64,000 bases of DNA from positions 415,276,001-415,340,000 of the forward strand of contig OZ024740.1 in the NCBI GenBank assembly GCA_964016885.1, read 5' to 3'. Under the pieces are notes generated by a model. That model worked only from the letters and a program-made list of their open reading frames with translations, did not search any database and was not told where the DNA came from. A program made the position numbers and the translations under genes. The stretch is from Eledone cirrhosa. Lineage: Eukaryota. This document shows positions 2,781 to 62,680 of the stretch, piece by piece (position 1 is the stretch's first letter; every line of letters starts with the position of its first letter).

Positions 2781-2917
2781 TAAAATAACAGATTAAAGTT
2801 TAAGCAAAGAATCGCTGCTTTCACCCTTAACGGGATCTTCTGAAACTCAGAAGATCCCGTTAAGGGTGAAAGCAGCGATTCTTTGCTTAAACTTTAATCT
2901 GTTATTTTAATAAATAT
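2773..2917. repeat. Perfect palindrome with 71-bp arms and a 3-nt loop
   Basis: 2773-2843 is the reverse complement of 2847-2917; loop AAC; abuts (TA)n. Confidence 0.9.
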
Positions 2918-3030
2918 TTGCTCTACAGTTCTTATATATATTTATCCTTATCGAGCCCTCTTTGGATTTTAGTCTTCAAATTTATTATTATTATATATAT
3001 ACATATATATATACACATATATATATATAT

Positions 3031-26593: not shown

Positions 26594-26785
26594 GGCCGTG
26601 GATTGGCAGTATTGGTAGAGGGTTGGACGCCATGCTTTGCAGCATAGAGTTACGGCCCTTTAAGGTCTGAGTTCAAATCCCGCCGAGGTTAACTTTGCCT
26701 TTCATCCTGACGGGGTCGATAAAATAAAGTACCAGTAATGCAATGGGATAATTACTGGCCTTGTGCCAAAAGTAGAAACAATTAT
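26594..26785 (+). mobile_element. SINE family A copy with TSD
   Basis: Flanked by attatttgtatc / attatctgtacc. Confidence 0.85.
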
Positions 26786-26902
26786 CTGTACCAGTTTCAG
26801 CTTGTAGGCTTCTTCATACGACGGAAATGTATAATACAATTAAATTGCATATTTATAAGAACAATAAGAATATGGGGAAAAAATGTTTTTACATACATAT
26901 AT

Positions 26903-29256
26903 CAAGTGGCCAGGAGGGAAGCTAGGCGACAAGTGTACTTCGCAAGAAGGGAAGCAGAGGAAAGAAAGTTCAAGCATGTTCTACAACGTGAGGACCAAAA
27001 ACGTGAGGTGTTCAGGATTGCTAGGCAATGTGTCAAGGAAAACAGTGATATTGTCGGGGAGAAGTGTGTACTTAACGATGATGGCATACTTGCCATCACC
27101 GACGCCGATAAGAAGGTAGCTTGGAAGTGTCACTATGAAAGGCTACTAAATGAGGAGAATAAATGGGAGAAAGACAGTCTCCCCCACATCGACCCAATAG
27201 AGGGACCAGCAGTGTTAGTCGAGGGTAGTATAATAAGTAAGGCAATCAAAGATATGAAGACAGACAAGGCGGCTGGGCCTTCGGAAATAGTTGCCGAGAT
27301 GCTGAAGGCATCTGGTACGGTGGGACACACCATGGTCACCCAGATAGTCAACCAAGTCATACAGAATGGGGTTGTTCCGAAGGACTGGCGTAGCAGCATT
27401 ATCGTTAACTGTTATAAGGGTAAAGGAGATGCCCTAGATAGGAGTAACTATAGAGGCATTAAATTAATCGACCAGGTCATGAAGGTCACGGAAAAAGTAA
27501 TAGCGCAACTAATCAGAGAGCGAATTGATCTAGATGAAATGCAGTTCGGGTTTGTGTCAGGAAAAAGTACCACAGACGCTCTTTTCATTGTACGACAACT
27601 ACAGGAGAAGTACCTAGCTAAAAGTAAACCCCTATACTTAGCTTTCGTCGACTTGGAGAAGGCCTTCAACAGAGTCCCCCATTCCATTATCTGGTGGGCT
27701 CTTAGAAAACTAGGTGTTGATGAATGGCTTGTGAGAGCTATACAAGCCATGTATAAAGAAACAGTCAGCAAGGTTAGAATTAACAACGAATATAGTGAAG
27801 AGTTTAGTGTAAAAGTTGGTGTTCATCAGGGCTCTGTTCTTAGCCCCCTACTATTTATTATTGCCCTCCAGGCTATAACAGTGGAGTTCAAGACCGGCTG
27901 CCCATGGGAACTCCTATACGCAGATGATCTAATGCTCATAGCTGAATCAATAGAAATTCCAAACATGGAAGCACGGCCTAGAATCAAAAGGCCTTAAAAT
28001 TAACCTGGCTAAGACTAAAGTTCTAGTTTGTAAGAAAGAAAATAAGGCGGCGGTCCCCTCCGGGAAGTGGCCATGCGCAGAGTGTAGGAAAGGCGTAGGT
28101 AGAAATTCCATTTTGTGTCCCAAATGCAAAGTTTGGGTGCATAAAAGATGTAGTGGGATCACAGGTAAGCTAACTAAGAACATAGATTTTACATGTGGCC
28201 GGTGTTCTGGGGCAATAAGTATCAGCAAGTGCCCATAAAATACTAGCTCTTTCAACTGCGCAGAGGGTTCTATAGAAATAGTGGACAGCTTCCGTTACCT
28301 GGGTGACAAAATCAGCAGTGGGGGAGGGTGCTCTGAAAGTACAGTAGCTAGAGTCAGAACTGGGTGGAAAAAGTTCAGAGAGCTTATACCACTATTAGCC
28401 GCTAAAGGGTTCTCCCTAAAAATGAAAGGCAGGCTGTACGATGCCTGCATACGAACAGCAATGTTGCATGGCAGTGAGACCTGGGCATTGTGTGCAGAGG
28501 ATATACGCAGACTAGAGAGAAACAAAGCTTGCATGCTCCGCTGGATGTGTAATAGTAATATACGTGAACGACAAAGCATAAACGAACTAAGGAAAAAATT
28601 AGAAATAAGAGGGATCAGATGTTGTTTACTAGAGAGAAGGCTACATTGGTATGGTCACGTGATGCGCATGAAGGACGATAGCTGTATAACAAAGTGCAGG
28701 GCAATAAAGATAGACGGTAGCCACGGAATAGGCAGACCCAGAAAAACCTGGGACGAGCTGATAAACTCCGACCTCACACACTTACACCTCACCAAGACAA
28801 TGTCACTGGACCGAGACCTTTGGCGGTACTCAGTAATAGAGAAGACCCGCCTTACCTAAATACAAAGTAAAACCTACTACAGTCAGTAGGCATCTCTAAC
28901 AAAATACACCCCCGTCCCACCACCCCCACCCCATCCACACCACCCCCTTCTATGTAAAGTTATGTTGGTGCCACACCATCCAGGCCGAAACAAATGAGAT
29001 CGTGTAGGTGTCACGACAAAAAAACACACAGTCCACGCTGTAATGTGGCCGTGTAGGCAACACGGTAAAAACCTCCCAGTCCCACACTGTAAATGTGGTT
29101 GGTGTTAGGAAGGGCATCCAACTGTAGAAAACCTGCCAGACAGTCCTATGCGAGCAAGACAATCACTCTTGCCTCAAGTGGGAAAACCCCCGTCCAAACC
29201 CATGCAAGCGTGGAACACGGACGTTAAACGTTGATGATGATGATGATGATGATGAT
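26903..29256 (+). mobile_element. RTE-clade LINE, 5'-truncated, RT frameshifted near 27955
   Basis: KGKGDALDRSNYRGIKL, QFGF, FVDLEKAF, GVHQGSVLSPLLF, LLYADD, FRYLG, LHWYGHVMR, GRPRKTW; 3' UTR ends in (GAT)n. Confidence 0.9.
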
Positions 29257-34845: not shown

Positions 34846-34965
34846 ATAGGAAAAGAGTCAGGGCTCCGACGGCTGAACTCCAGCCGTTTCGACAGCTAGA
34901 TCCAAACAGTCCGGATCTAGCTGTCGAAACGGCTGGAGTTCAGCCGTCGGAGCCCTGACTCTTTT

Positions 34966-37943: not shown

Positions 37944-40820
37944 TCAAGGATCAATTTCCCCCTCGTCCCTCTGCATATGAAAGTCTGCTGTCCAGGTCGG
38001 TGGTCTACGACTTCGTTGTGATCTTCGTAGTATTGGGGCAGAGCTCTGGGTTTCCACCTCATCTTGGGTTTCCTCTTCCTCGGAGTCCGTCGACACAGTG
38101 ATTCTTCTTACATCCAGGACATGACGTGGTACCCCGTCCACGGACACATTGTTCTTTGAATTTACGGCCGTCACCGTTCCCCTTCCTCATTGAGATGTGC
38201 AACGTGCATCTGGGGGCTTAACCCAGACTTCTTCGCCCACCTGCACGAATGCACTCTCTCTCCCCACTGGCCATTGTGGTGGCATGCACGGGTGCCGCCA
38301 CTCGTATTTGAATACTGCTCTGTGTGGCACCGATTCCTCGACCTGTCCAACCCGAGGAGACATATTGTACCAGAACACTGCCTCCATTGGTGAGATATGG
38401 CCCCGCTCCGCCATTGCCTTGATCGTCCGGTGGTGGCGCTCCACGATTCCATTCCCGCTCGGCCTGTGCGCCGCTCTGAAGAAACGGTCCACCTTCCATC
38501 CATCGAGCATCTCCCTCAGTGCCTCCGAGCGGAACGCTGCGCTGTTGTCCATCAGCAGTTCGTCCACAGGGCCCCGCTCCAAGAACACCTCTCTCAACAT
38601 CCGCACGATTTCCTCGGCCGTTCCAGTCTTCATCTCCCTCCATATCGCCATTCGACCTGGTCCACAGTCGACCATCGAGAGGTATGTTCCCTGCCGGTAG
38701 TGCGTCACATCCACCGCTAATCGCTTCCAGTCGCGATCCACCGGGAGGCTTTCCGTTTCGTGTATACCCGGAGCGGGATCAATGGACTGACATCGGACGC
38801 AGCCTCTAACCCCCCCTCCCCCCCGAACACTGTGTCTGCTAACGTCCGAGTCGATTCTCCTGGCTAGGAACAGGCTCCTATCCACCCCCATGTGGTGCAT
38901 GTCATGCAACCCCTTCAGGTCTAACTCGGTCAGCCGACACACGGCAGCTATCTCATCCTCTACCTCCTCCGGCGCTTCCATCCAGGCTTTCTTCACTCTA
39001 GTTAAGATGTCTGCTCTATTTTTCTCTGAGGGCACGAACACTACGCTCAGCTTCAGGTCGAACTCGGTGGCCAGCTCTCCTAACGTTCTCAGGCGGCGCT
39101 TTATCAGCATCTCCGCCGCGCCTCTCGTTCGCACTCTCTTCTCACTGGTGAGCACTGATCTTACCCATCCGAGTACAGTAGCCGAGTCGGTGCATATCTT
39201 GATGGTGCGCAGCCCCCACCGCAGGGTGAGGTTCACCCCTCTCAACACCGCGTCCAGCTCGGCCACATTGATGTGGCTGCAGTCGTCCTTCTTTCTAAGC
39301 CAGGCTGCATCCTCGACCTCAACACCTCCTATCTCCAACGTGACACCCAGCGCTATGCTGCTGGCATCGCACCACACGGTCCCGCTCTGTGATTCGGGAA
39401 CGTACCAGCGTCCCCGCACTGGGTCGTCGGCCTTCACCCTCCCCACGATCTCCTGCATCATGGCCACCGTCCTCTCTCCCACTCTGTCACTCCAAGTCAC
39501 CCCTCCCGCTCGTCTCTTGACATAGCTGCATGCCGTCCGGAGCCACCCAGCGATCGGGTAGTGACCCACCAACTTTCCACACACCGAGAAAAGCTCCCGC
39601 CTATTCATATTTGGGCCCAGTTCCGGAACTTCGTTTCCCCTCTGGAACACCAAAACGCCCGTCTTGTCTCGCCGTAGCCTAAGTCCCAGCGCGGCTCCTC
39701 CCTCCAATGCTTCTGATGGCTTCGCAGTCAGTCCATACCTCCACAAATGGCTCGTGACCTCCGCCGTCGACACCACCGACTCGTCCACTAGGATGTCGTC
39801 AATATAGGAGTTAGTAGCCCTCTTTATCTTGTCGGCCCTCCCCAGAGCGGTCTTGAGGACCGCCGCCATGATCTTCGGTGCGGAGCTCAGCCCAAAACGG
39901 AGCCTGGTCAGGCAATATGTCCGGCCCTTATACCTGACCAGCTGATACCGCCAGAGCTTCTCATCTACATGCAACAGCAAGTAAGCCGACTTTAGATCCA
40001 CGATCGCTGAACCCCCCGTCATGCGTCTCCACTCACGCAGGGTTTCCCCACAGACATCCGTGACCTCGCCACCCGTGTGGCATGACACGTGCTCGTTCAG
40101 CTCCCGATAGTCCAGCACCGGCCTCACCTTGCTCTTCGTGGGTTGCACCACCGCCATCAACGACAATACTCCGCACTTCACCTCCTCCTTCCAGGGAAGC
40201 AGTATGCCCTCTTCGATCCATCTCTCTACTTCTCGCTCGAACTCGCTCCTAGCGTTTCCCTTCAATGTGTGTTGATAGCAGCCCACTTTGGTCTTCAGTG
40301 TTGGTGGTTCTCCCTTCCAGTACCACTCAACAACCCATCGCTGCCCATCAAACACGGCCTTGAAGTCTTTGTCCTGTACAGTGTAAGCGGGGTATTTCTC
40401 CTCGTGGGCCTTCTGGTTCTCATGACATGCACTCACAGCGCATACCGATGCAGCGGCGCCAAACGACACACCGACATTGTTCACCGTCACGCTCCCTAGA
40501 TGGCCAATCGCGTCCATGCCCATAACCACGCCGATCCCATCCACCACACTGTCTACCACGATGGCGGAAAGCCTTATCCTCCTTCCCCGTACCGCTATTT
40601 CCATCTCGCTGCGACCTCGGCATTCAATTTTCCTGCCGTCGACTGCCCTTACGCTGCTCTTCCCTCCCCACCTCTGCACCACCCCCGCGGTCACCAGTGT
40701 CGTCGTACAGCCTGTATCCACGAGGGCTCGCTGTGGCTTCCCCCTCATGAAGACTTCCACCACAGGCAGCGCCGCTACTCGTAAGGGGCAACTACCGGCG
40801 CAGTAGTTCCCCTTGGATCG
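37944..40820 (-). CDS. Pol polyprotein (protease, RT, RNase H, integrase) with one in-frame TGA at 38187-38189
   Basis: LVDTGC; VDLKSAY and YIDD; WCDAS, HINVAELDAV, TDS, NRAD; HHCC zinc motif and VD, MDN, NGIVER. Track ORF 37944-38174 is in frame after the TGA. Confidence 0.9.
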
Positions 40821-41536
40821 TTTCCCTGGTCGCAGTTAGTAGCCATGTGGCCTGGTCGCTTACACCGGTAGCAAATTATCTCCGGCTTTGACTCTCTACA
40901 GTCTCTAGCCATGTGCGGGCCCTGGCACCGAAAACAGCGCCCCCTAAACGCACGCGGACGGCCGCATGCCGAGGTTGCCTCCCTTTCACCATTTCGCTGC
41001 CAGGTGTCCTGAGCCTCCGTAGTTGCTATCGCCGCAAAACTCTTTTTGGCAACTTCCGCTATGATCCGGGCTTGTTCCACCAGTGAACGCATTTCCATCT
41101 CTTTATAACCCGGGACTTGCTGCAGTTTCACCGCTATGTCGTCCGGAAATCCATTGATGAACGCCAACCGCACCGTGCGTTCACATTCCGCCTGGTAACC
41201 GGCCAACATAGCCAACCGCCTTATTTCCGCTGCGAAAAGGTCGACGCGCTCACCATTCCACCTGATTCTCGCCAGCTTAGCAAAAGCCGCCAACGGTCCC
41301 TCGGCGAATGCATCCATCAGACGCCTCTCAATCTTCTGCACATCTCTTTGGCTGTGCTCGTCCAACTCAAGGAAGAGTACCAGCGCGTCGCCCTCGAGGT
41401 ACAATGCCATGAGGCCAGCCACGTCCTCTATCTTCTGCAAGCTTGCGACCAGCCGAACCTTCCACAGCCAAGCGACAACATCACCTTCCCCGGTGAATGC
41501 CCTGATAGCTTCGTTCATCTGTAGTCTTGTCGCCAT
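40775..41536 (-). CDS. Gag (253 aa) with two zinc knuckles
   Basis: CFRCQGPHMARDC and CYRCKRPGHMATNC; ATG about 65 nt after the 5' LTR. Confidence 0.9.
   Translation of the reverse strand: MATRLQMNEAIRAFTGEGDVVAWLWKVRLVASLQKIEDVAGLMALYLEGDALVLFLELDEHSQRDVQKIERRLMDAFAEGPLAAFAKLARIRWNGERVDLFAAEIRRLAMLAGYQAECERTVRLAFINGFPDDIAVKLQQVPGYKEMEMRSLVEQARIIAEVAKKSFAAIATTEAQDTWQRNGEREATSACGRPRAFRGRCFRCQGPHMARDCRESKPEIICYRCKRPGHMATNCDQGNDPRGTTAPVVAPYE
40783..40826 (-). promoter_or_regulatory. -1 programmed ribosomal frameshift signal
   Basis: In-frame slippery heptamer G GGA AAC, 5-nt spacer, then hairpin aaggggaactact...ggtagttgcccctt; the -1 frame is open into pol. Confidence 0.8.
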
Positions 41537-41602
41537 CTTCTGATTTGTCTTGCGGCAAGTGTTTTATTTATTTATTTTTTTTCTTCAGTCACCGAAATAG
41601 CT

Positions 41603-48111: not shown

Positions 48112-48551
48112 AATATTTGGCACTACCATGCTATTAGCTGTCAGAAATGAAAGTTTCGTCAATCTTCTCAATCGTAAACATCGTTTATTTACGTATTGTG
48201 GAGTTACTTAAATGAAAATATAGGTGGCCCTTAAAAGGGCCAAATTAGAAAACAAATTTAAGTTAATTAGAAAACAAGTCATGGTTATCAAATAAATTGT
48301 ATTTAATCATTTATATGTTCATAGTCATGGTTATCAATTTCATGTATAGGGTTGGTGAAAAAAATTTGATGTTGATAACTATGACTTGTTTTCTAATTAA
48401 CTTAAATTTGTTTTCTAATTTGGCCCTTTTAAGGGCCACCTATATTTTCATTTAAGTAACTCCACAATACGGAAATAAACGATGTTTACGATTGAGAAGG
48501 TTGACGAAACTTTCACTTCTGACAGCTAATAGCATGGTAGTGCCTAATATT
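48112..48551. mobile_element. Fold-back MITE-like element with about 180-bp inverted arms
   Basis: ggcactaccatgctattagctgtcagaa...gtcatggttatcaa versus ttgataactatgac...ttctgacagctaatagcatggtagtgcc, with few mismatches. Confidence 0.8.
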
Positions 48552-54395: not shown

Positions 54396-54438
<43 letters not shown>

Positions 54439-54488
54439 TAATAAAATAATGAATAAACAAAGAAACAGTTCCTTATATTAAAAAAAAT

Positions 54489-54632
54489 TCATCATTTTAC
54501 GATCGTTTCTAGGATATATATGTGTGTTAGAGTTGGTATGCATATTCTAAAGATCTATGTACAATATTTATACAAACTATCAGAGGGAATATTCATACCT
54601 ACCCATATATATGCTGTCTTCAGAAATAATGA
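54489..54632 (-). ncRNA. Type I hammerhead ribozyme motif with long stem II (mirror of 58698-58841)
   Basis: Reverse complement reads ucauuauuu CUGAAGA ... GAAA C(GAUC)G UA aaaugauga. Confidence 0.65.
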
Positions 54633-55397
54633 TATTTGTTTATTGAAAAAAACAAAGATTCAATACAATGGGTCTGTTTGGGAACAGGTTTTGAATTGAC
54701 CAATAGAGAGATAGTGAGGGTCAAGATAGTAATATAGTAGTAGAAGGTAGATTTCAGTTTTGGATGGAAAAGAATATTATGAATGAAGGATTATTTTAGG
54801 GAAGAAATAGGTCTTATGCTGACCTCAGAAATAATTTTATTTGTTCATTGAATAAAACCAACAAAGATCTAATATATTCTGTCTGTTTGGTAAGAGGTTT
54901 AGAATTAACCAATAGAAAGTTAATAATTGGCCAAATGGTAAAATAGTAGTAATTGAAGCTTATTTTAGGAGTGAAAATAGGTCAGGTGGTCAGTAAAAGG
55001 TATACAAGCAGTTGCTGTTATAAAATAGTAATGCCAATACAAATATCTAAGGTGACTAAAGTTTTACGATAAGAATGTTAGTGAAAAAAATACATCTATG
55101 AAAAGAATATAAATTAATTTAATTGATGGGTATATTTATATTGATAAAATTATACTAATACATATAGATATGATAAATAAGAGTTAGATGCAGTTGAAAA
55201 GTGCTGTTAAAGATGAGGGGAAATTAAAAGAATATAAAAATAATATATATATATACTTATATATATTAATAGTAATAATAATAAAATTGAAGACTAAAAT
55301 CCAGAGAGGGCTCGATAAGGAAAATATATATCAAATATATAATAAATATACTTATATATATATATATATATACATATACACACACACATATACACAC

Positions 55398-55430
<33 letters not shown>

Positions 55431-55838
55431 TGCATATATACATACATATATATATATACACACATACACACTTACATATACATATAATTATTAGGGGGTG
55501 GGGATTAAATTTATTAGTGAGAAATAATAAATATATATAGTTTTCAAGGAACATAGAGTCATAACCTGATGTTAAAGCATTATATATGTTTACTTAATGA
55601 TATCAGTTTTAGGAAATGATAGTTGTAAGAAGGAAAGCAAAATTATGTAGTTCATCAGTAGTAGAGTATTAATTATAGGTTAACTAAATTAAAAATAGTT
55701 TATATATTAATTTCTAAAGTGTATATTAATTAGGTTTATAATATTTAAAGCAGAATTATGTAGTTCATCAGTAGTAGAATATTAATTATAGGTTAACTAA
55801 ATTAAAAATAGTTTATATATTAATTTCTAAAGTGTATA

Positions 55839-57197
55839 TTAATTAGGTTTATAATATTTAAAGGTTTTTCTCAGTTTACGATTACACGATATTATTAATT
55901 CCTGTCGCTTATTTAATAGGATATCCTTAGATTTCATTATTTCAAAAAGTTCTTGGGAACATAATCTACATTCATATCTACTATTTTGATAAGGGGTGGC
56001 CCTTTTGAGCACACTCCAGGTCAGGTCATAATCTATATTCCTCTTTCTATAACTATTAATTATTTCAGCTAGGGATGTATTAGCTGGTGCGACATTTTTA
56101 AAACTATGTTTGTGGGTATTAAATCTTACCTTAAATTTGTTAGAGGTAGCTCCTATATATGAATAAATTGAGTCCTTAGTGTTAACTTTACATTTATATA
56201 CTATGTTATTAACAAGGCAATTTCCTTTTAATGGACAGTTTGCCTTGTTTCTACAGTTACAACTTTTCGTGAATCCTGTATCTGAGGAGATATTATGGTT
56301 AGTTTGATGTACTGGTGGTATACTCATGGTTTTTTTACATTTATATGCATTATAGGCACTTATATTTTGTTTTATGTTTTTGGTTGTTGAGTAGGAGAAT
56401 TTAACCGTTGATCTATTTAAGATTTGATGGTATTTGTGGTTTGGCGGGAAGTTTTTCTCTAGGATATTAAAGAATTTTTTAGGTATATTATCCTTAATTT
56501 GTAAATTAAATGGAGCATTATACCAAGTAACTCGTCTATTACGGTTTCGATGTTGTTTATTGTTTTTATAGGATGCATCCTGATGTTTATTAAGAGAATT
56601 ATTGTTAATGACCTCACCACACACATTTTTAGTTAGATTTATTGATTTAGGTGTTTTAGCTTGTTTATTAGGAGTTTTATTATTAACATTTATTAGAGTT
56701 GTAGGATGAGTAGTTTTTTGAGAGTTACTATACTGTATATTAGAAGAGTTAGAGAAATTTGGTTTTATGTTGGTGTTTTGGGGTATAGTGTGAGTGGCAT
56801 TTAGGTGTGTATGTTTCATTTGGTGTTTGTTGGTAATATTAGGTTGTATGTTTGTAGTGTTATTGGTAGAAGGTATATATACTAATCTATTTTTGTGGCC
56901 ACTTCTAGCTAGAGCTTCGTTATAAAAGGTCGCATTTTTATCAAATACATCTTGGTTAGACGAAAGGTTAGAAATTCTAAGTGATATATTATATGCAAGG
57001 TTTTTAAGGATAGATTTAGGGTGATTAGATTGTGAGTATATGTAGTGTAAATTTTGGTTGGGTTTATGGTAAGGTTGGTAGATACCCGTAGATAAGTCTA
57101 ATGTTATATCTAGGAGATTAACTACTTTACTTGTGTTTTCAAATGTAATATCTAGACTATAATAGTCTTTAAGGAAAGTTCTAATAAGCTTTTTATT
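55839..57197 (-). CDS. Penelope-like RT C-terminus plus GIY-YIG endonuclease (partial)
   Basis: VNLLDITLDL, PYHKPN, SNHP, CNCRNKANCPLKGNC (CxCx5Cx5C), IVYKC...YIGAT...FKVRFNTH, CRLCSQE, LNKRQE. Confidence 0.88.
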   Translation of the reverse strand, partial: NKKLIRTFLKDYYSLDITFENTSKVVNLLDITLDLSTGIYQPYHKPNQNLHYIYSQSNHPKSILKNLAYNISLRISNLSSNQDVFDKNATFYNEALARSGHKNRLVYIPSTNNTTNIQPNITNKHQMKHTHLNATHTIPQNTNIKPNFSNSSNIQYSNSQKTTHPTTLINVNNKTPNKQAKTPKSINLTKNVCGEVINNNSLNKHQDASYKNNKQHRNRNRRVTWYNAPFNLQIKDNIPKKFFNILEKNFPPNHKYHQILNRSTVKFSYSTTKNIKQNISAYNAYKCKKTMSIPPVHQTNHNISSDTGFTKSCNCRNKANCPLKGNCLVNNIVYKCKVNTKDSIYSYIGATSNKFKVRFNTHKHSFKNVAPANTSLAEIINSYRKRNIDYDLTWSVLKRATPYQNSRYECRLCSQELFEIMKSKDILLNKRQELIISCNRKLRKTFKYYKPN

Positions 57198-57203
57198 AAA
57201 AGG

Positions 57204-57910
57204 AAACTGTCCATTAAAAGGAAATTGCCTTGTTAATAACATAGTATATAAATGTAAAGTTAACACTAAGGACTCAATTTATTCATATATAGGAGCTACC
57301 TCTAACAAATTTAAGGTAAGATTTAATACCCACAAACATGGTTTTAAAAATGCCGCACTAGCTAATACAACATCTCTAGCTGAAATAATTAATAGTTATA
57401 GAAAGAGGAATATAGATTATGACCTGACCTGGAGTGTGCTCAAAAAGGCCACTCCTTATCAAAATAGTAGATATGAATGTAGATTATGTTCCTAAGAACT
57501 TTTTGAAATAATGAAATCTAAGGATATCCTATTAAATAAGCGACAGGAATTAATAATATCGTGTAATCATAAACTGAGAAAAACCTTTAAATATTATAAA
57601 CCTAATTAATATACACTTTAGAAATTAATATATAAACTATTTTTAATTTAGTTAACCTATAATTAATATTCTACTACTGATGAACTTCATAATTTTGCTT
57701 TCCTTCTTACAACTATCATTTCCTAAAACTGATATCATTAAGTAAACATATATAATGCTTTAACATCAGGTTATGACTCTATGTTCCTTGAAAACTATAT
57801 ATATTTATTATTTCTCACTAATAAATTTAATTCCCCCCCCCCAATAATTATATGTATATGTAAGTGTGTATGTGTGTATATATATATATATGTATGTATG
57901 TATATATGCA

Positions 57911-57965
<55 letters not shown>

Positions 57966-58008
57966 ATATATATATATATATATGTGTGTATATGTGTGTG
58001 TGTATGTG

Positions 58009-58048
<40 letters not shown>

Positions 58049-59028
58049 AGTATATATATATATTATTTTTATATTCTTTTAATTGCCCCTCATCTTTAAC
58101 AGCACTTTTCAACTGCATCTAACTCTTATTTATCATATCTATATGTATTAGTATAATTTTATCAATATAAATATACCCATCAATTAAATTAATTTTATTC
58201 TTTTCATAGATGTATTTTTTTCACTAACATTCTTATCGTAAAACTTTAGTCACCTTAGATATTTGTATTGGCATTACTATTTTATAACAGCAACTGCTTG
58301 TATACCTTTTACTGACCGCCTGACCTATTTTCACCCCTAAAATAAGCTTCAATTACTACTATTTTACCATTTGGCCAATTATTAACTTTCTATTGGTTAA
58401 TTCTAAACCTCTTACCAAACAGACAGAATATATTAGATCTTTGTTGGTTTTATTCAATGAACAAATAAAATTATTTCTGAGGTCAGCATAAGACCTATTT
58501 CTTCCCTAAAATAATCCTTCATTCATAATATTCTTTTCCATCCAAAACTGAAATCTACCTTCCTCTACCCATAATTTAAGGTTCTTCTACTACTATATTA
58601 CTATCTTGACCCTCACTATCTCTCTATTGGTCAATTCAAAACCTGTTCCCAAACAGACCCATTGTATTGAATCTTTGTTTTTTTCAATAAACAAATATCA
58701 TTATTTCTGAAGACAGCATATATATGTGTAGGTATGTATATTCCCTCTGATAGTTTGTATAAATATTGTACATAGATCTTTAGAATATGCATACCAACTC
58801 TAACACACATATATATCCTAGAAACGATCGTAAAATGATGAATTTTTTTTAATATAAGGAACTGTTTCTTTGTTTATTCATTATTTTATTAATTTATCTT
58901 GACTCTGTTTTCCGTTTATTTTTCACCGAAAGTAGTTTTTGAATGCATCTTCTCTTTTCATGATATCCGGATTAGATTGAGTTCTTCATACGGATTGAAC
59001 ACTACCGTAAACTTTTGGTAGATTTATC
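57204..59028 (+). mobile_element. Penelope-like element 2, inverted arm
   Basis: 57204-58897 is the reverse complement of 54435-56241 with small indels and a stop codon; about 130 nt of extra 3' sequence precedes (TA)n. Confidence 0.88.
58698..58841 (+). ncRNA. Type I hammerhead ribozyme motif with long stem II
   Basis: 9-bp stem I ucauuauuu/aaaugauga; CUGAAGA at 58707-58713; stem II includes auauauaugugu/acacauauauau and gguauguauauuc/gaauaugcauacc; GAAA at 58821; palindromic loop GAUC; predicted GUA cleavage after 58832. The base pair closing stem II is a C-A mismatch. Confidence 0.68.
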
Positions 59029-59094
59029 TATATATATATATATATATATATATAATTGTTTTACGCCGGCTTTTTCATTCTTTCATAAGTAACA

Positions 59095-60609: not shown

Positions 60610-62680
60610 AATGTAATTTTGGTTTGTGCCAGGTAAAAGTACCACAGATGCTCTCTTTCTCGTACAACAACTACAGGAGAAGTACCTAGCTAAAAGTAAA
60701 CCCGTCTACTTAGCTTTTGTTGACTTGGAGAAAGCCTTTGAGAGAGTCCCCCGCTCCATTATCTGGTGGGCCCTTAGAAAACTAGTAGATGAATGACTTG
60801 TGAGAGCTATACAAGCCATGTATAAAGAAACAGTCAGCAAGATTAGAATTAACAATGAATATAGTGAAGAATTTAGCGTAAAAGTAGGTGTTCATCAAGG
60901 CTCTGTCCTTAGCCCCCTTCTGTTTATTATTGCCCTAAAGACTATTACAGAAGAGTTTAAGACCGGCTGCTCATAGGAACCTCTATATGCAGATGATCTA
61001 ACTCTCATAACTGAAATATGGCTAAACTAGAGAAGAAAATCCAAACATGGAAGCATTGCCTAGAATCAAAAAGTCTTAAAGTTAACTTGTCTAAGACTAA
61101 AGTTCTAGTATGTTGAAAGGAAAATAGGGCACAGATACCCTCTGGGAAATGGCCATGCTCAGTGTGTAGGAAAGGAGTAGGTAGAAATTCCATTCTATGC
61201 CCCAAATGCAAACTATGGGTACCTAAAAGATGTAGTGGATCACAGGCAAGCTATCTAAGAATGTAGATTTTATATGTGGCCAATGCTCAGGTGCAATAAG
61301 TGGCAAGTGCCCACAGGATACTAGCTCCTTCAACTACCCAGATGGTTCTATAGAAATAGTAGACACTTTCCGTTCCCTGGGTGACAAAATCAGCAGTGGA
61401 GTAGGGTGTTCTGAAAGTACAGTAGCCAGAGTTAGAATGGGATGGAAAAAGTTCAGAGAGCTTATACCGCTGTTGGTCACAAAAGGTTTCTCTCTAAAAA
61501 TGAAAGGCAGATTGTATGATGCCTGTATACGAACAGTAATGTTACATGGCAGTGCGACCTGGGCATTGTGTGCAGAGGACCTGTGCAGATTGGAAAGGAA
61601 TGAAGCATGCATGCTCCGTTGGATGTGTAATAGTAACATACACGAACAGCAAAACATAAGTAAACTAAGTGAGAAATTAGGAATAGGAGGGATCAGATGC
61701 TGTTTACTTGAGAGGAGATTGCATTGGTATGGTCACGTGATGCATATGAAAAATGACAGCTGTATAAAAATGTGCAGAGGGATCAAACAGAGTAGATAGA
61801 CCCAGATAAACCTGGGACAACATGATAAAATCTGACCTTGCACACTTGCACCTCGTTAAGATAATGTCACTGGCTTGAGACCTTTGGCGCTACACAGTAA
61901 TACAGAAGACCCACCTTCCCCTACGTACAAAGTTAAACCTACAGTCAGTAGGCACATCATCATCATCATCATCAACGTTTAACGTCCGTGTTCCACGCTT
62001 GCATGGGTTTGGACGGGGGTTTTCCCACTTGAGGCAAGAGTGATTATCTTGCTCGCATAGGATTGTCTGGCGGGTTTTCTACAGCTGGATGCCCTTCCTA
62101 ACACCAACCACATTTACAGTGTGGGACTGGGAGGTTTTTACTGTGTTGCCTACACGGCCACATTACAGCGTGAACTGTGTGTTTTTTTGTCGTGACACCT
62201 ACACGATCTCATTTGTTTCGGCCTGGATGTTGTGGCACCAACATAACTTTACATTGAAAGGGGTGGTGTGGATGGGGTGGGGGTGGTGGGACGGGGGTGT
62301 ATTTTGTTAGAGATGCCTTTAACCAAATATACACCCCAACCCACTACCCCTACTCCATCCTTCCACTTCCACCCACACCACCCTCACTCTGTAAAGTTAT
62401 GTTGGTACCACAGAACATCCAGTCCACACTAAAGTGGTTGTGTAGGTGTCATGACAAAAAGCACCCGGTCCACGCTGTAAAGTGATCGTGGAGGTAACAC
62501 GGTAAAAACCTCCCAGTCCACACTGTAAACATGGTTGGTGTTAGGAAGGGCATCCAACCGTAGAAAACCTGCCAGATACAGTTCTATACAAGCGATCAAT
62601 CTTTGCCTCAAGTGGGACAATTCCCATCTAACCCATGCTAGCATGGAAGATAGATGTTAAACGATGATGATGATGATGAT
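60610..62680 (+). mobile_element. Decayed RTE LINE, relative of 26903-29256
   Basis: Colinear with about 27540-29256, with many stops and indels; (GAT)n tail at about 62663-62680. Confidence 0.85.
61955..62318 (-). mobile_element. Young RTE 3' UTR inserted antisense into the older RTE
   Basis: Near-identical to the reverse complement of about 28888-29250; (CAT)n tail at 61955. Confidence 0.8.

What the first reader, a model, noticed from the sequence alone, without database searches (positions are those of the whole stretch)
54435..59028. Second, unrelated PLE family with the same palindromic architecture and the same end asymmetry
Seen: a main copy plus an inverted arm of about 1.7 kb, a 962-bp spacer, (TA)n at both ends and hammerheads in both arms. 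In both elements the inverted arm extends further 3' than the main copy (about 90 nt in element 1, about 130 nt here). The junction has a 12-nt slippage repeat (attaaaaggaaa at 57195 and 57213). Inference: two families sharing these rules suggests a systematic (TA)n-targeted integration route that yields ribozyme-capped palindromes. This is the best candidate for an under-described system in the window.
Basis: partly seen in the sequence, partly recalled or inferred. Interest (0 to 1): 0.75.

Follow-up and report, generated by a model that had tools for sequence, protein, structure and literature searches.

The report
Penelope palindromes pair short, long ends
This DNA palindrome is two back-to-back pieces of a known kind of jumping gene (a Hydra-clade Penelope-like retrotransposon) inserted in a TA repeat, and such palindromes almost always pair one short end with one long end, each lying just before a copy of a small predicted RNA hairpin, which likely means two enzymes start copying the same RNA at two marked points from the two sides of one DNA break.

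Summary
The palindrome is real and the coordinates hold: 1694-nt shared arms, 962-nt spacer, 131-nt tail on the right arm, (TA)n flanks, a hammerhead motif in each arm, 12-nt junction repeat. It is a Hydra-clade Penelope-like element (PLE). Inverted 5'-truncated copies, a one-sided tail, hammerheads and (TA)n targeting are all in print. The two window families are related (39-46% protein identity), and the tail is not tied to the shorter arm (longer arm in 30 of 63). Not found in print (7 searches): in five families, 104 of 106 contiguous palindromes pair one short (S) with one long (L) end, none two L. All 10 mapped ends lie 5-11 nt before a copy of one bulged-hairpin motif (background 1-2%; six found after the prediction was noted). 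Arms of one insertion share minority variants 5-7 times more often than arms of different insertions. Likely mechanism (inferred): both strands of a (TA)n break prime reverse transcription on one template, at S and L, and the cDNAs are end-joined. Earlier unreviewed notes of this scan reported the hairpin and twin priming on other DNA of this genome.

The parts
54400..54435 (.). (TA)n tract, left target flank
54433..57197 (-). 5'-truncated main copy of a Hydra-clade PLE (family 2), ending at the short end S at 54433-54436
54489..54632 (-). type I hammerhead motif, left arm; predicted cleavage after 54498
55272..55343 (-). nested tail fragment of another Hydra family (family B), inserted in the internal TA-rich tract of the left arm only
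55634..55863 (-). 113-nt tandem duplication, left arm only
55839..57197 (-). ORF remnant: end of RT/thumb, N-rich linker, CxCx5C motif, GIY-YIG-type endonuclease with CxxC
56242..57203 (.). 962-nt spacer: the part of the main copy that the other arm lacks, plus the junction insert
57195..57224 (+). head-to-head junction: 12-nt direct repeat at 57195 and 57213, with 6 templated extra bases at 57198-57203
57204..59028 (+). second arm: endonuclease C-terminus (57204-57609, one internal stop), 3' UTR, hammerhead and tail, ending at the long end L
58698..58841 (+). type I hammerhead motif, right arm, with 107-nt stem II; predicted cleavage after 58832
58898..59028 (+). 131-nt tail = first 131 nt of the next tandem unit (5' UTR of the ORF)
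58902..58987 (+). copy 1 of the bulged-hairpin motif, starting 5 nt after S (copy 2 lies beyond L and is absent from this insertion)
59029..59054 (.). (TA)n tract, right target flank

Best explanation
The palindrome is one insertion of a Hydra-clade Penelope-like retrotransposon made of two 5'-truncated copies joined head to head, one ending at the short site S and one at the long site L, and it was likely made by two reverse transcriptions primed from the two strands of a cut (TA)n tract on the same RNA template. Shown: two fixed 3' ends per family, S+L pairing, no link between tail and arm length, junction microhomology or inserts, shared variants between arms, a repeated motif just 3' of each end. 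Inferred: the element protein, probably as a dimer, binds the two motif copies in a read-through RNA; each subunit anneals a nicked (TA)n end to the 5-11 nt TA-like linker before its hairpin and copies 5'-ward; each cDNA stops at an independent point (or at the RNA start); host end joining fuses the two cDNA ends by microhomology, sometimes with templated inserts such as the 12-nt repeat here. The hammerhead is carried along because it lies upstream of S; it does not set the ends.
For: S+L in 104 of 106 contiguous pairs, L+L in 0: family 2, 39 S+L and 1 S+S; family 1, 24 and 1; family A, 20 of 20; family 3, 14 of 14; family B, 7 of 7 without an inner TA tract. Binomial p 1e-28 against the 50% ceiling for independent ends; 83 of 84 among loci not picked by an end pattern. 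Tail on the longer arm in 18 of 39 and 12 of 24. Junctions: 32 microhomology, 3 blunt, 28 inserts of 63; 2 nt or more in 23 of 35 versus 20% for random joints. Shared minority variants per kb within versus between insertions: 6.0 vs 1.0, 7.2 vs 1.5, 2.3 vs 0.3 (15 of 39, 21 of 25 and 9 of 14 pairs with enough overlap). Motif at 10 of 10 mapped ends versus 1.1-1.6% of positions in three units; six of the ten came, after the prediction was noted. The outer base pair, which the finder did not require, is A-T in 3 and G-C in 4 of 11 instances; family B copy 2 closes a C(UUCG)G loop. By eye the motif is in 4 of 6 published Hydra consensi, twice in Hydra-1_Ajap and Hydra-1_Crog. In vitro, a Poseidon PLE cuts and extends both strands and starts at two internal RNA sites that bound the tail (PMC11167929).
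Against: No biochemistry or RNA data here. Predicted pairing of the motif is 0.88-0.99 in families 1 and 2 but 0.15 or less in families B and 3; the outer pair is not formed in 4 of 11 instances (one of these, family 3 S, is paired in other copies), and the inner closing pair was required by the finder, so it is no test. Shared variants could come from gene conversion between arms or from two RNAs of one master locus. Two contiguous S+S pairs (L074, L129) and, among 10 interrupted pairs, two more need another route. Half or more of insertions show only one arm. A trailing enzyme must displace the first cDNA to give L arms longer than S arms; L arms stop at S only slightly more often than expected (11 of 58 within -10..+8, about 5.6 expected, counted by hand; 11 vs 4 genome-wide, p 0.12). 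The window's own junction was not bridged in four read sets, and no empty site was found.
Confidence: 0.6

Rival explanations
1. The ends are set at the DNA level: a palindromic or circular DNA intermediate is cut by the endonuclease once at S and once at L, and is then joined to (TA)n (the 'EN-mediated resolution' suggested in PMC8557442).
For: Stated as the likely origin of the tail in PMC8557442. The D. virilis endonuclease needs the tail to recognise its own DNA (as cited in PMC11167929; the original paper was not held). Both sites are TA-like. Would also give arms with shared variants.
Against: The motif keeps base pairs rather than sequence between its feet (4-103 nt inner length) and includes a UUCG loop, which points to single-stranded nucleic acid. 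In vitro start sites on RNA match the genomic ends (PMC11167929). It gives no reason why an intermediate would have arms of independent length.
Confidence: 0.14
2. Twin priming, but on two RNA molecules held together (for example by the palindromic hammerhead stem III), with an asymmetric protein dimer using S on one RNA and L on the other.
For: Stem III is palindromic or nearly so in families 1, 2 and A, and PLE hammerheads are proposed to act as dimers (PMC4209133). It removes the need for strand displacement and fits independent arm lengths.
Against: Needs an extra source of asymmetry to avoid S+S and L+L. Arms share variants more than random copies do, so both RNAs would have to come from one locus. 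Family B is abundant with a CAGAAGA core in 29 of 32 motifs.
Confidence: 0.16
3. Fold-back or self-priming: one cDNA turns back on itself (or an antisense RNA self-primes, PMC3846280) and the hairpin is integrated.
For: Proposed from junction palindromes in rotifer PLEs. A few pairs turn at nearly the same position in both arms (L019, L026, L065). Explains shared variants.
Against: A fold-back arm can hold only sequence of the first strand, so the L arm would always be the longer one. In 33 of 63 pairs, the window's included, the S arm is longer while the L arm has the tail: each arm has sequence the other lacks.
Confidence: 0.06
4. Assembly or library artefact (fold-back reads or chimeras).
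For: The window's junction was not bridged by any listed record; long palindromes are a known assembly problem (PMC8557442).
Against: The arms differ by substitutions, indels and a nested insert; breakpoints differ at every locus while the ends are fixed; other head-to-head joints of this family appear in independent contigs and raw reads.
Confidence: 0.02

Closest known systems
Hydra clade of Penelope-like elements (Craig et al. 2021, PMC8557442), e.g. Hydra-1_Obim, Hydra-1_Ajap, Penelope-13_HM
   Same: C-terminal GIY-YIG, DKT, CxCx5C linker, CxxC/CxH, (TA)n target, 3' type I hammerhead; Penelope-13_HM is annotated with an inverted 5'-truncated copy and a hammerhead on each strand.
   Different: A distinct family: by eye its N-terminus and hammerhead differ from Hydra-1_Obim. 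Unit is 4.1 kb versus generally under 3 kb; RWR for RWK; hammerhead stem II 105-107 nt versus at most about 24 nt in File S2.
Typical EN+ PLE insertion: partial tandem, inverted 5'-truncated copy, optional 30-40-bp tail (PMC3846280, PMC8557442, PMC2377424)
   Same: Head-to-head arrangement, tail at one end, partial tandems (L117, L121, L056, L072).
   Different: Tails here are 66-142 nt. The passages read call the tail optional or 'often only at one end' and give no count; here it is on exactly one end in 104 of 106 pairs, on either arm.
Poseidon PAc internal initiation (Frangieh et al. 2024, PMC11167929)
   Same: Two internal start sites that bound the tail, both DNA strands extended, AT-rich target, RNA needed 3' of the start sites, hammerhead dispensable.
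   Different: Other clade; there the sites lie inside the ORF, here in the 5' UTR. The parts read do not address pairing of the two sites in one event, inverted repeats, or a repeated motif after each site.
L1 twin priming
   Same: Two target ends prime two cDNAs that are joined by microhomology, giving an inversion.
   Different: In L1 the second primer lands at a variable internal site and the pieces do not overlap; here both starts are fixed near the 3' end, so the arms overlap and form a palindrome.

Membership tests
Hydra-clade PLE | single ORF with RT and C-terminal GIY-YIG endonuclease | tested here: met
   Window remnant and fuller copies L012, L117, L121, judged by motifs and by tblastn to the intact family-1 ORF; Pfam gave no hit.
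Hydra-clade PLE | DKT in place of DKG | tested here: met
   SDKT in L012, L121 and family 1.
Hydra-clade PLE | N-terminal RWK motif | tested here: inconclusive
   RWR in families 1 and 2, a conservative change.
Hydra-clade PLE | CxCx5C linker, CxxC and CxH around the conserved E and N, no CCHH motif | tested here: met
   (CxH intact in the right arm, CxR in the left); absence of CCHH judged by eye.
Hydra-clade PLE | insertion into (TA)n | tested here: met
   In loci picked by an internal query, 28 of 28 L ends (family 2) and 61 of 61 ends (family 1) abut TA; 31 of 45 family-2 S-motif calls do, and the other 14 are, by inspection, loose motif hits or ambiguous.
Hydra-clade PLE | canonical hammerhead near the 3' end | tested here: met
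   Core conserved in 118 of 122 motifs found, stems I and III formed, but stem II is 92-116 nt; cleavage untested.
Hydra-clade PLE | length generally under 3 kb | tested here: not met
   Unit 4094-4237 nt, due to a long 3' UTR and N-rich linker; the paper gives this as a tendency.
Hydra-clade PLE | placement in the Hydra clade by RT phylogeny | not tested
   No tree built; published Hydra proteins were compared by eye only.
EN+ PLE insertion structure | tail equals the start of the next tandem unit | tested here: met
   Tandem copies read through S and L into the ORF.
EN+ PLE insertion structure | target site duplication | tested here: inconclusive
   Hidden in (TA)n; the left flank is single-copy, so no empty site.
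Naiad/Chlamys PLE | N-terminal endonuclease, no canonical hammerhead | tested here: not met
   Endonuclease is C-terminal and hammerheads are present.

The most novel reading that the evidence does not exclude
Hydra-clade PLEs carry a duplicated, clade-wide RNA hairpin that docks the two subunits of one RT-endonuclease dimer on a single transcript, so that every two-ended integration starts once at S and once at L. This would explain the inverted repeats and the one-sided tail of Penelope-like elements by one programmed twin-priming step, and name the minimal cis-element for it.
Probability: 0.4. Interest if true: 0.72.

Novelty: new member of a known kind. Interest (0 to 1): 0.5.

Why it matters
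How PLEs, the sister group of telomerase, build inverted repeats and a one-sided tail is named as open in PMC8557442 and PMC11167929. A near-absolute S+L rule in five families and a candidate RNA element after each start site turn that question into two direct experiments (hairpin mutants; pairing of start sites on one target). With thousands of candidate places per family in this 3.0-Gb genome, the route is also a large source of long inverted repeats. The palindrome itself is ordinary PLE anatomy.

Tried and rejected
Rfam found no hammerhead in the window; Pfam found nothing in four PLE proteins. 'Tail marks the shorter arm': rejected, 30 of 63. 'Ends sit at the hammerhead cut': rejected, S is 34-65 nt and L 102-197 nt downstream in the five families (the family-2 value printed is a script error, the 65 nt is). 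Correlated truncation of the two arms: none in unbiased sets (rho 0.13 and -0.28). 5' ends piling up at the hammerhead cut: a cluster 3' of the cut in family 2 only, confounded by a T run; inconclusive. First arm-divergence tests used too broad a mask and were redone. L044 and L045, picked as S+S from pattern lists, are separate or interrupted inserts. DNA search for the family-B end returned nothing. The family-A N-terminal query proved to be another family, C, so copy 2 of the motif is unmapped for family A and the S end for family C. Empty site: flank single-copy. Reads: only 55900-57760 was laid, on contigs and RAD-seq reads; no long reads; no RNA holder listed. Homodimer prediction for residues 1-480 of the family-1 protein: no verdict. 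Two older Penelope papers were not held, and figures and bioRxiv supplements could not be seen, so a prior description of the motif or the rule there, or in Repbase, is not excluded.
Full report
Observation. The structure is in the sequence as described. A PLE remnant runs on the - strand from 57197 to 54433; a second piece runs on + from 57204 to 59028. They share 1694 nt, the spacer is 962 nt, both 3' ends point outward into (TA)n, and the right arm has 131 nt more at its 3' end. The 12-nt repeat is at 57195 and 57213 and reflects a 6-nt templated insert at the joint. A descriptor scan found a type I hammerhead in each arm, and in each arm of element 1; Rfam missed them. The arms differ by substitutions, indels and a nested fragment of another PLE family, which argues against a read artefact.

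Identity. Fuller copies from the genome (L012, L117, L121) give a unit of 4.1-4.2 kb with RT and C-terminal GIY-YIG. The motifs match the Hydra clade as defined in PMC8557442 section 11: DKT, CxCx5C, CxxC/CxH, (TA)n target, hammerhead; RWR stands for RWK, and no tree was built. Families 1 and 2 of the window are 46% identical over 440 aa and 39% over 251 aa. First-look candidates in the 3.0-Gb genome number 3034 and 1142 for two family-2 queries and 2664 for family 1 (these are not copy numbers); exact end-plus-TA patterns match 517 (short end) and 213 (long end) times.

Two ends. In each family copies end at one of two fixed points, S and L. The stretch between them, 131, 88, 66, 142 and 89 nt in families 2, 1, A, 3 and B, is the start of the next tandem unit (shown for families 1, 2, 3 and B). 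The hammerhead cut lies 34-65 nt before S, so it does not define the ends.

Pairing rule. Loci examined: family 2, 39 picked by an internal query (38 of the 40 hits plus the window), 40 by an S pattern (every second unfetched entry of the first 100 listed), 28 by an L pattern and 2 picked as S+S; family 1, 33; family A, 36 plus two found earlier; family 3, 20 of 40 hits; family B, chance finds in all fetched loci. Among head-to-head pairs with TA at both ends and no foreign gap over 300 nt, family 2 gave 39 S+L and 1 S+S, family 1 24 S+L and 1 S+S. Family A gave 20 S+L of 20 (called by eye; several have only a short TA run at one end, one S end is off TA, one has a 480-nt gap against a pooled reference), family 3 14 of 14, family B 7 S+L, plus one S+S with an inner TA tract that I set aside as two inserts. 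Total 104 of 106, no L+L; 83 of 84 without end-pattern selection. Ten interrupted pairs, left out of that count, were 8 S+L and 2 S+S. The tail is on the longer arm in 30 of 63 and arm lengths are uncorrelated in unbiased sets. Joints show microhomology (32), blunt ends (3) or inserts (28). Arms of one insertion differ by 1.27, 0.69 and 0.12% against 2.11, 1.58 and 0.54% between insertions, and share minority variants 5-7 times more often.

Motif. Just 3' of S and of L in families 1 and 2 stands the same pattern: R-CTC, a stem-loop of any length, a 1-2 nt bulge, GAG-Y, and a short family-typical run. I noted it as a prediction and then found it after S in families A, B and 3 and after L in families B, 3 and C (the family-C L end rests on one inverted arm, L185). 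All 10 mapped ends have CTC 5-11 nt downstream, against 1.1-1.6% of unit positions. The two copies in a family resemble each other in the bases after GAGY, as expected if one protein reads both. Folding supports the pairing in families 1 and 2 but not clearly in B and 3. By eye it is present in Hydra-1_Ajap (twice, before the ATG), Hydra-1_Crog (twice, divergent, one with CCC/GGG), Hydra-2_Ajap and Hydra-2_Amil, and unclear in Hydra-1_Obim and Hydra-1_Amil (File S7 of PMC8557442).

Mechanism (inferred). A double-strand cut in (TA)n gives two 3' ends; each primes a cDNA, so both element 3' ends face outward. Independent choice of start site would give at most 50% S+L, so the choices are coupled; one RNA with two motif copies bound by two subunits is the simplest coupling and fits the shared variants. 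Fold-back cannot give the 33 of 63 pairs in which each arm holds sequence the other lacks. PMC11167929 shows in vitro that a PLE extends both strands and starts at two internal sites bounding the tail, and reports a predicted dimer. A corollary is that an insertion ending at S or L lacks hairpin 2 at its 3' end, so only read-through from a tandem, or a circular RNA, would be a full template; this was not tested. Odds: about 0.6 for this model, 0.16 for two paired RNAs, 0.14 for DNA-level resolution, 0.06 fold-back, 0.02 artefact.

Prior knowledge. Seen: PMC3846280 passages; PMC8557442 passages, outline, section 11, supplement parts 2, 52, 53 and searches; PMC11167929 parts 1-2 of 4, passages and a blank search of its text supplements; PMC4209133 part 1 of 4; bioRxiv 10.64898/2026.07.22.740005 passages; PMC2377424 passages. 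These describe the inverted copy, the optional 30-40-bp tail often at one end, hammerheads and (TA)n targeting. Seven searches (listings only for the other papers) showed no count of end pairing and no repeated motif; subscription papers, Repbase, figures and bioRxiv supplements were not visible. L1 twin priming is recalled, not read. Earlier unreviewed notes of this scan, read after my own analysis, report the hairpin, twin priming and stubs ending at the RNA start on other DNA of this genome; they are not independent support.

Limits. The window's junction was not bridged in two contig sets and two RAD-seq runs, though other head-to-head joints of the family were; no empty site was found; no RNA holder was listed.

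Verdict. Interest 0.5.

Noticed in passing
window 2781-2986: 205-nt S+L stub palindrome of Hydra family B in a TA tract.
   Followed up: yes
family B copies, e.g. L036:9200-9260: Hammerhead core reads CAGAAGA instead of CUGANGA in 29 of 32 motifs, so it is predicted inactive, yet the family is young and turned up by chance in many loci.
   Followed up: partly
family 2 about 196 nt before S (window about 58700); family B about 225 nt before S: 5' truncation points cluster here, with unrelated flanks upstream in family 2; may mark the RNA start. The family-B cluster may be an effect of the reference used.
   Followed up: partly
window 58333-58490 and 58567-58720: 76% direct repeat in the 3' UTR; the upstream copy holds a decayed 5' half of the hammerhead.
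   Followed up: no
L214-L253 (family 3): Very young Hydra family (0.5% between copies) whose hammerhead also has a long, about 85-nt stem II.
   Followed up: partly
L012:567-4660: Full unit that starts exactly one base after S and ends at S, with TA at both sides.
   Followed up: partly
L044:1150-8200: About 7 kb of almost pure TA-type repeat between two separate family-2 stubs.
   Followed up: partly
L049, L054, L100, L108, L118, L130, L143: Further Hydra-like families lie near family-1 and family-2 copies.
   Followed up: no
window 48112-48551: Inverted repeat with 180-nt arms and 80-nt spacer; each arm has a Histone3 stem-loop Rfam hit at the gathering score.
   Followed up: no
window 34853-34963: Near-perfect 111-nt GC-rich hairpin.
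   Followed up: no
window 38187-41563 (-): ORFs of 262 aa and 882 aa that look like gag and pol of an LTR retrotransposon (by eye).
   Followed up: no
window 26723-29251 and 61236-62318: LINE-like RT ORF pieces; 364-nt segments at 28888 and 61955 are 98% inverted copies.
   Followed up: no
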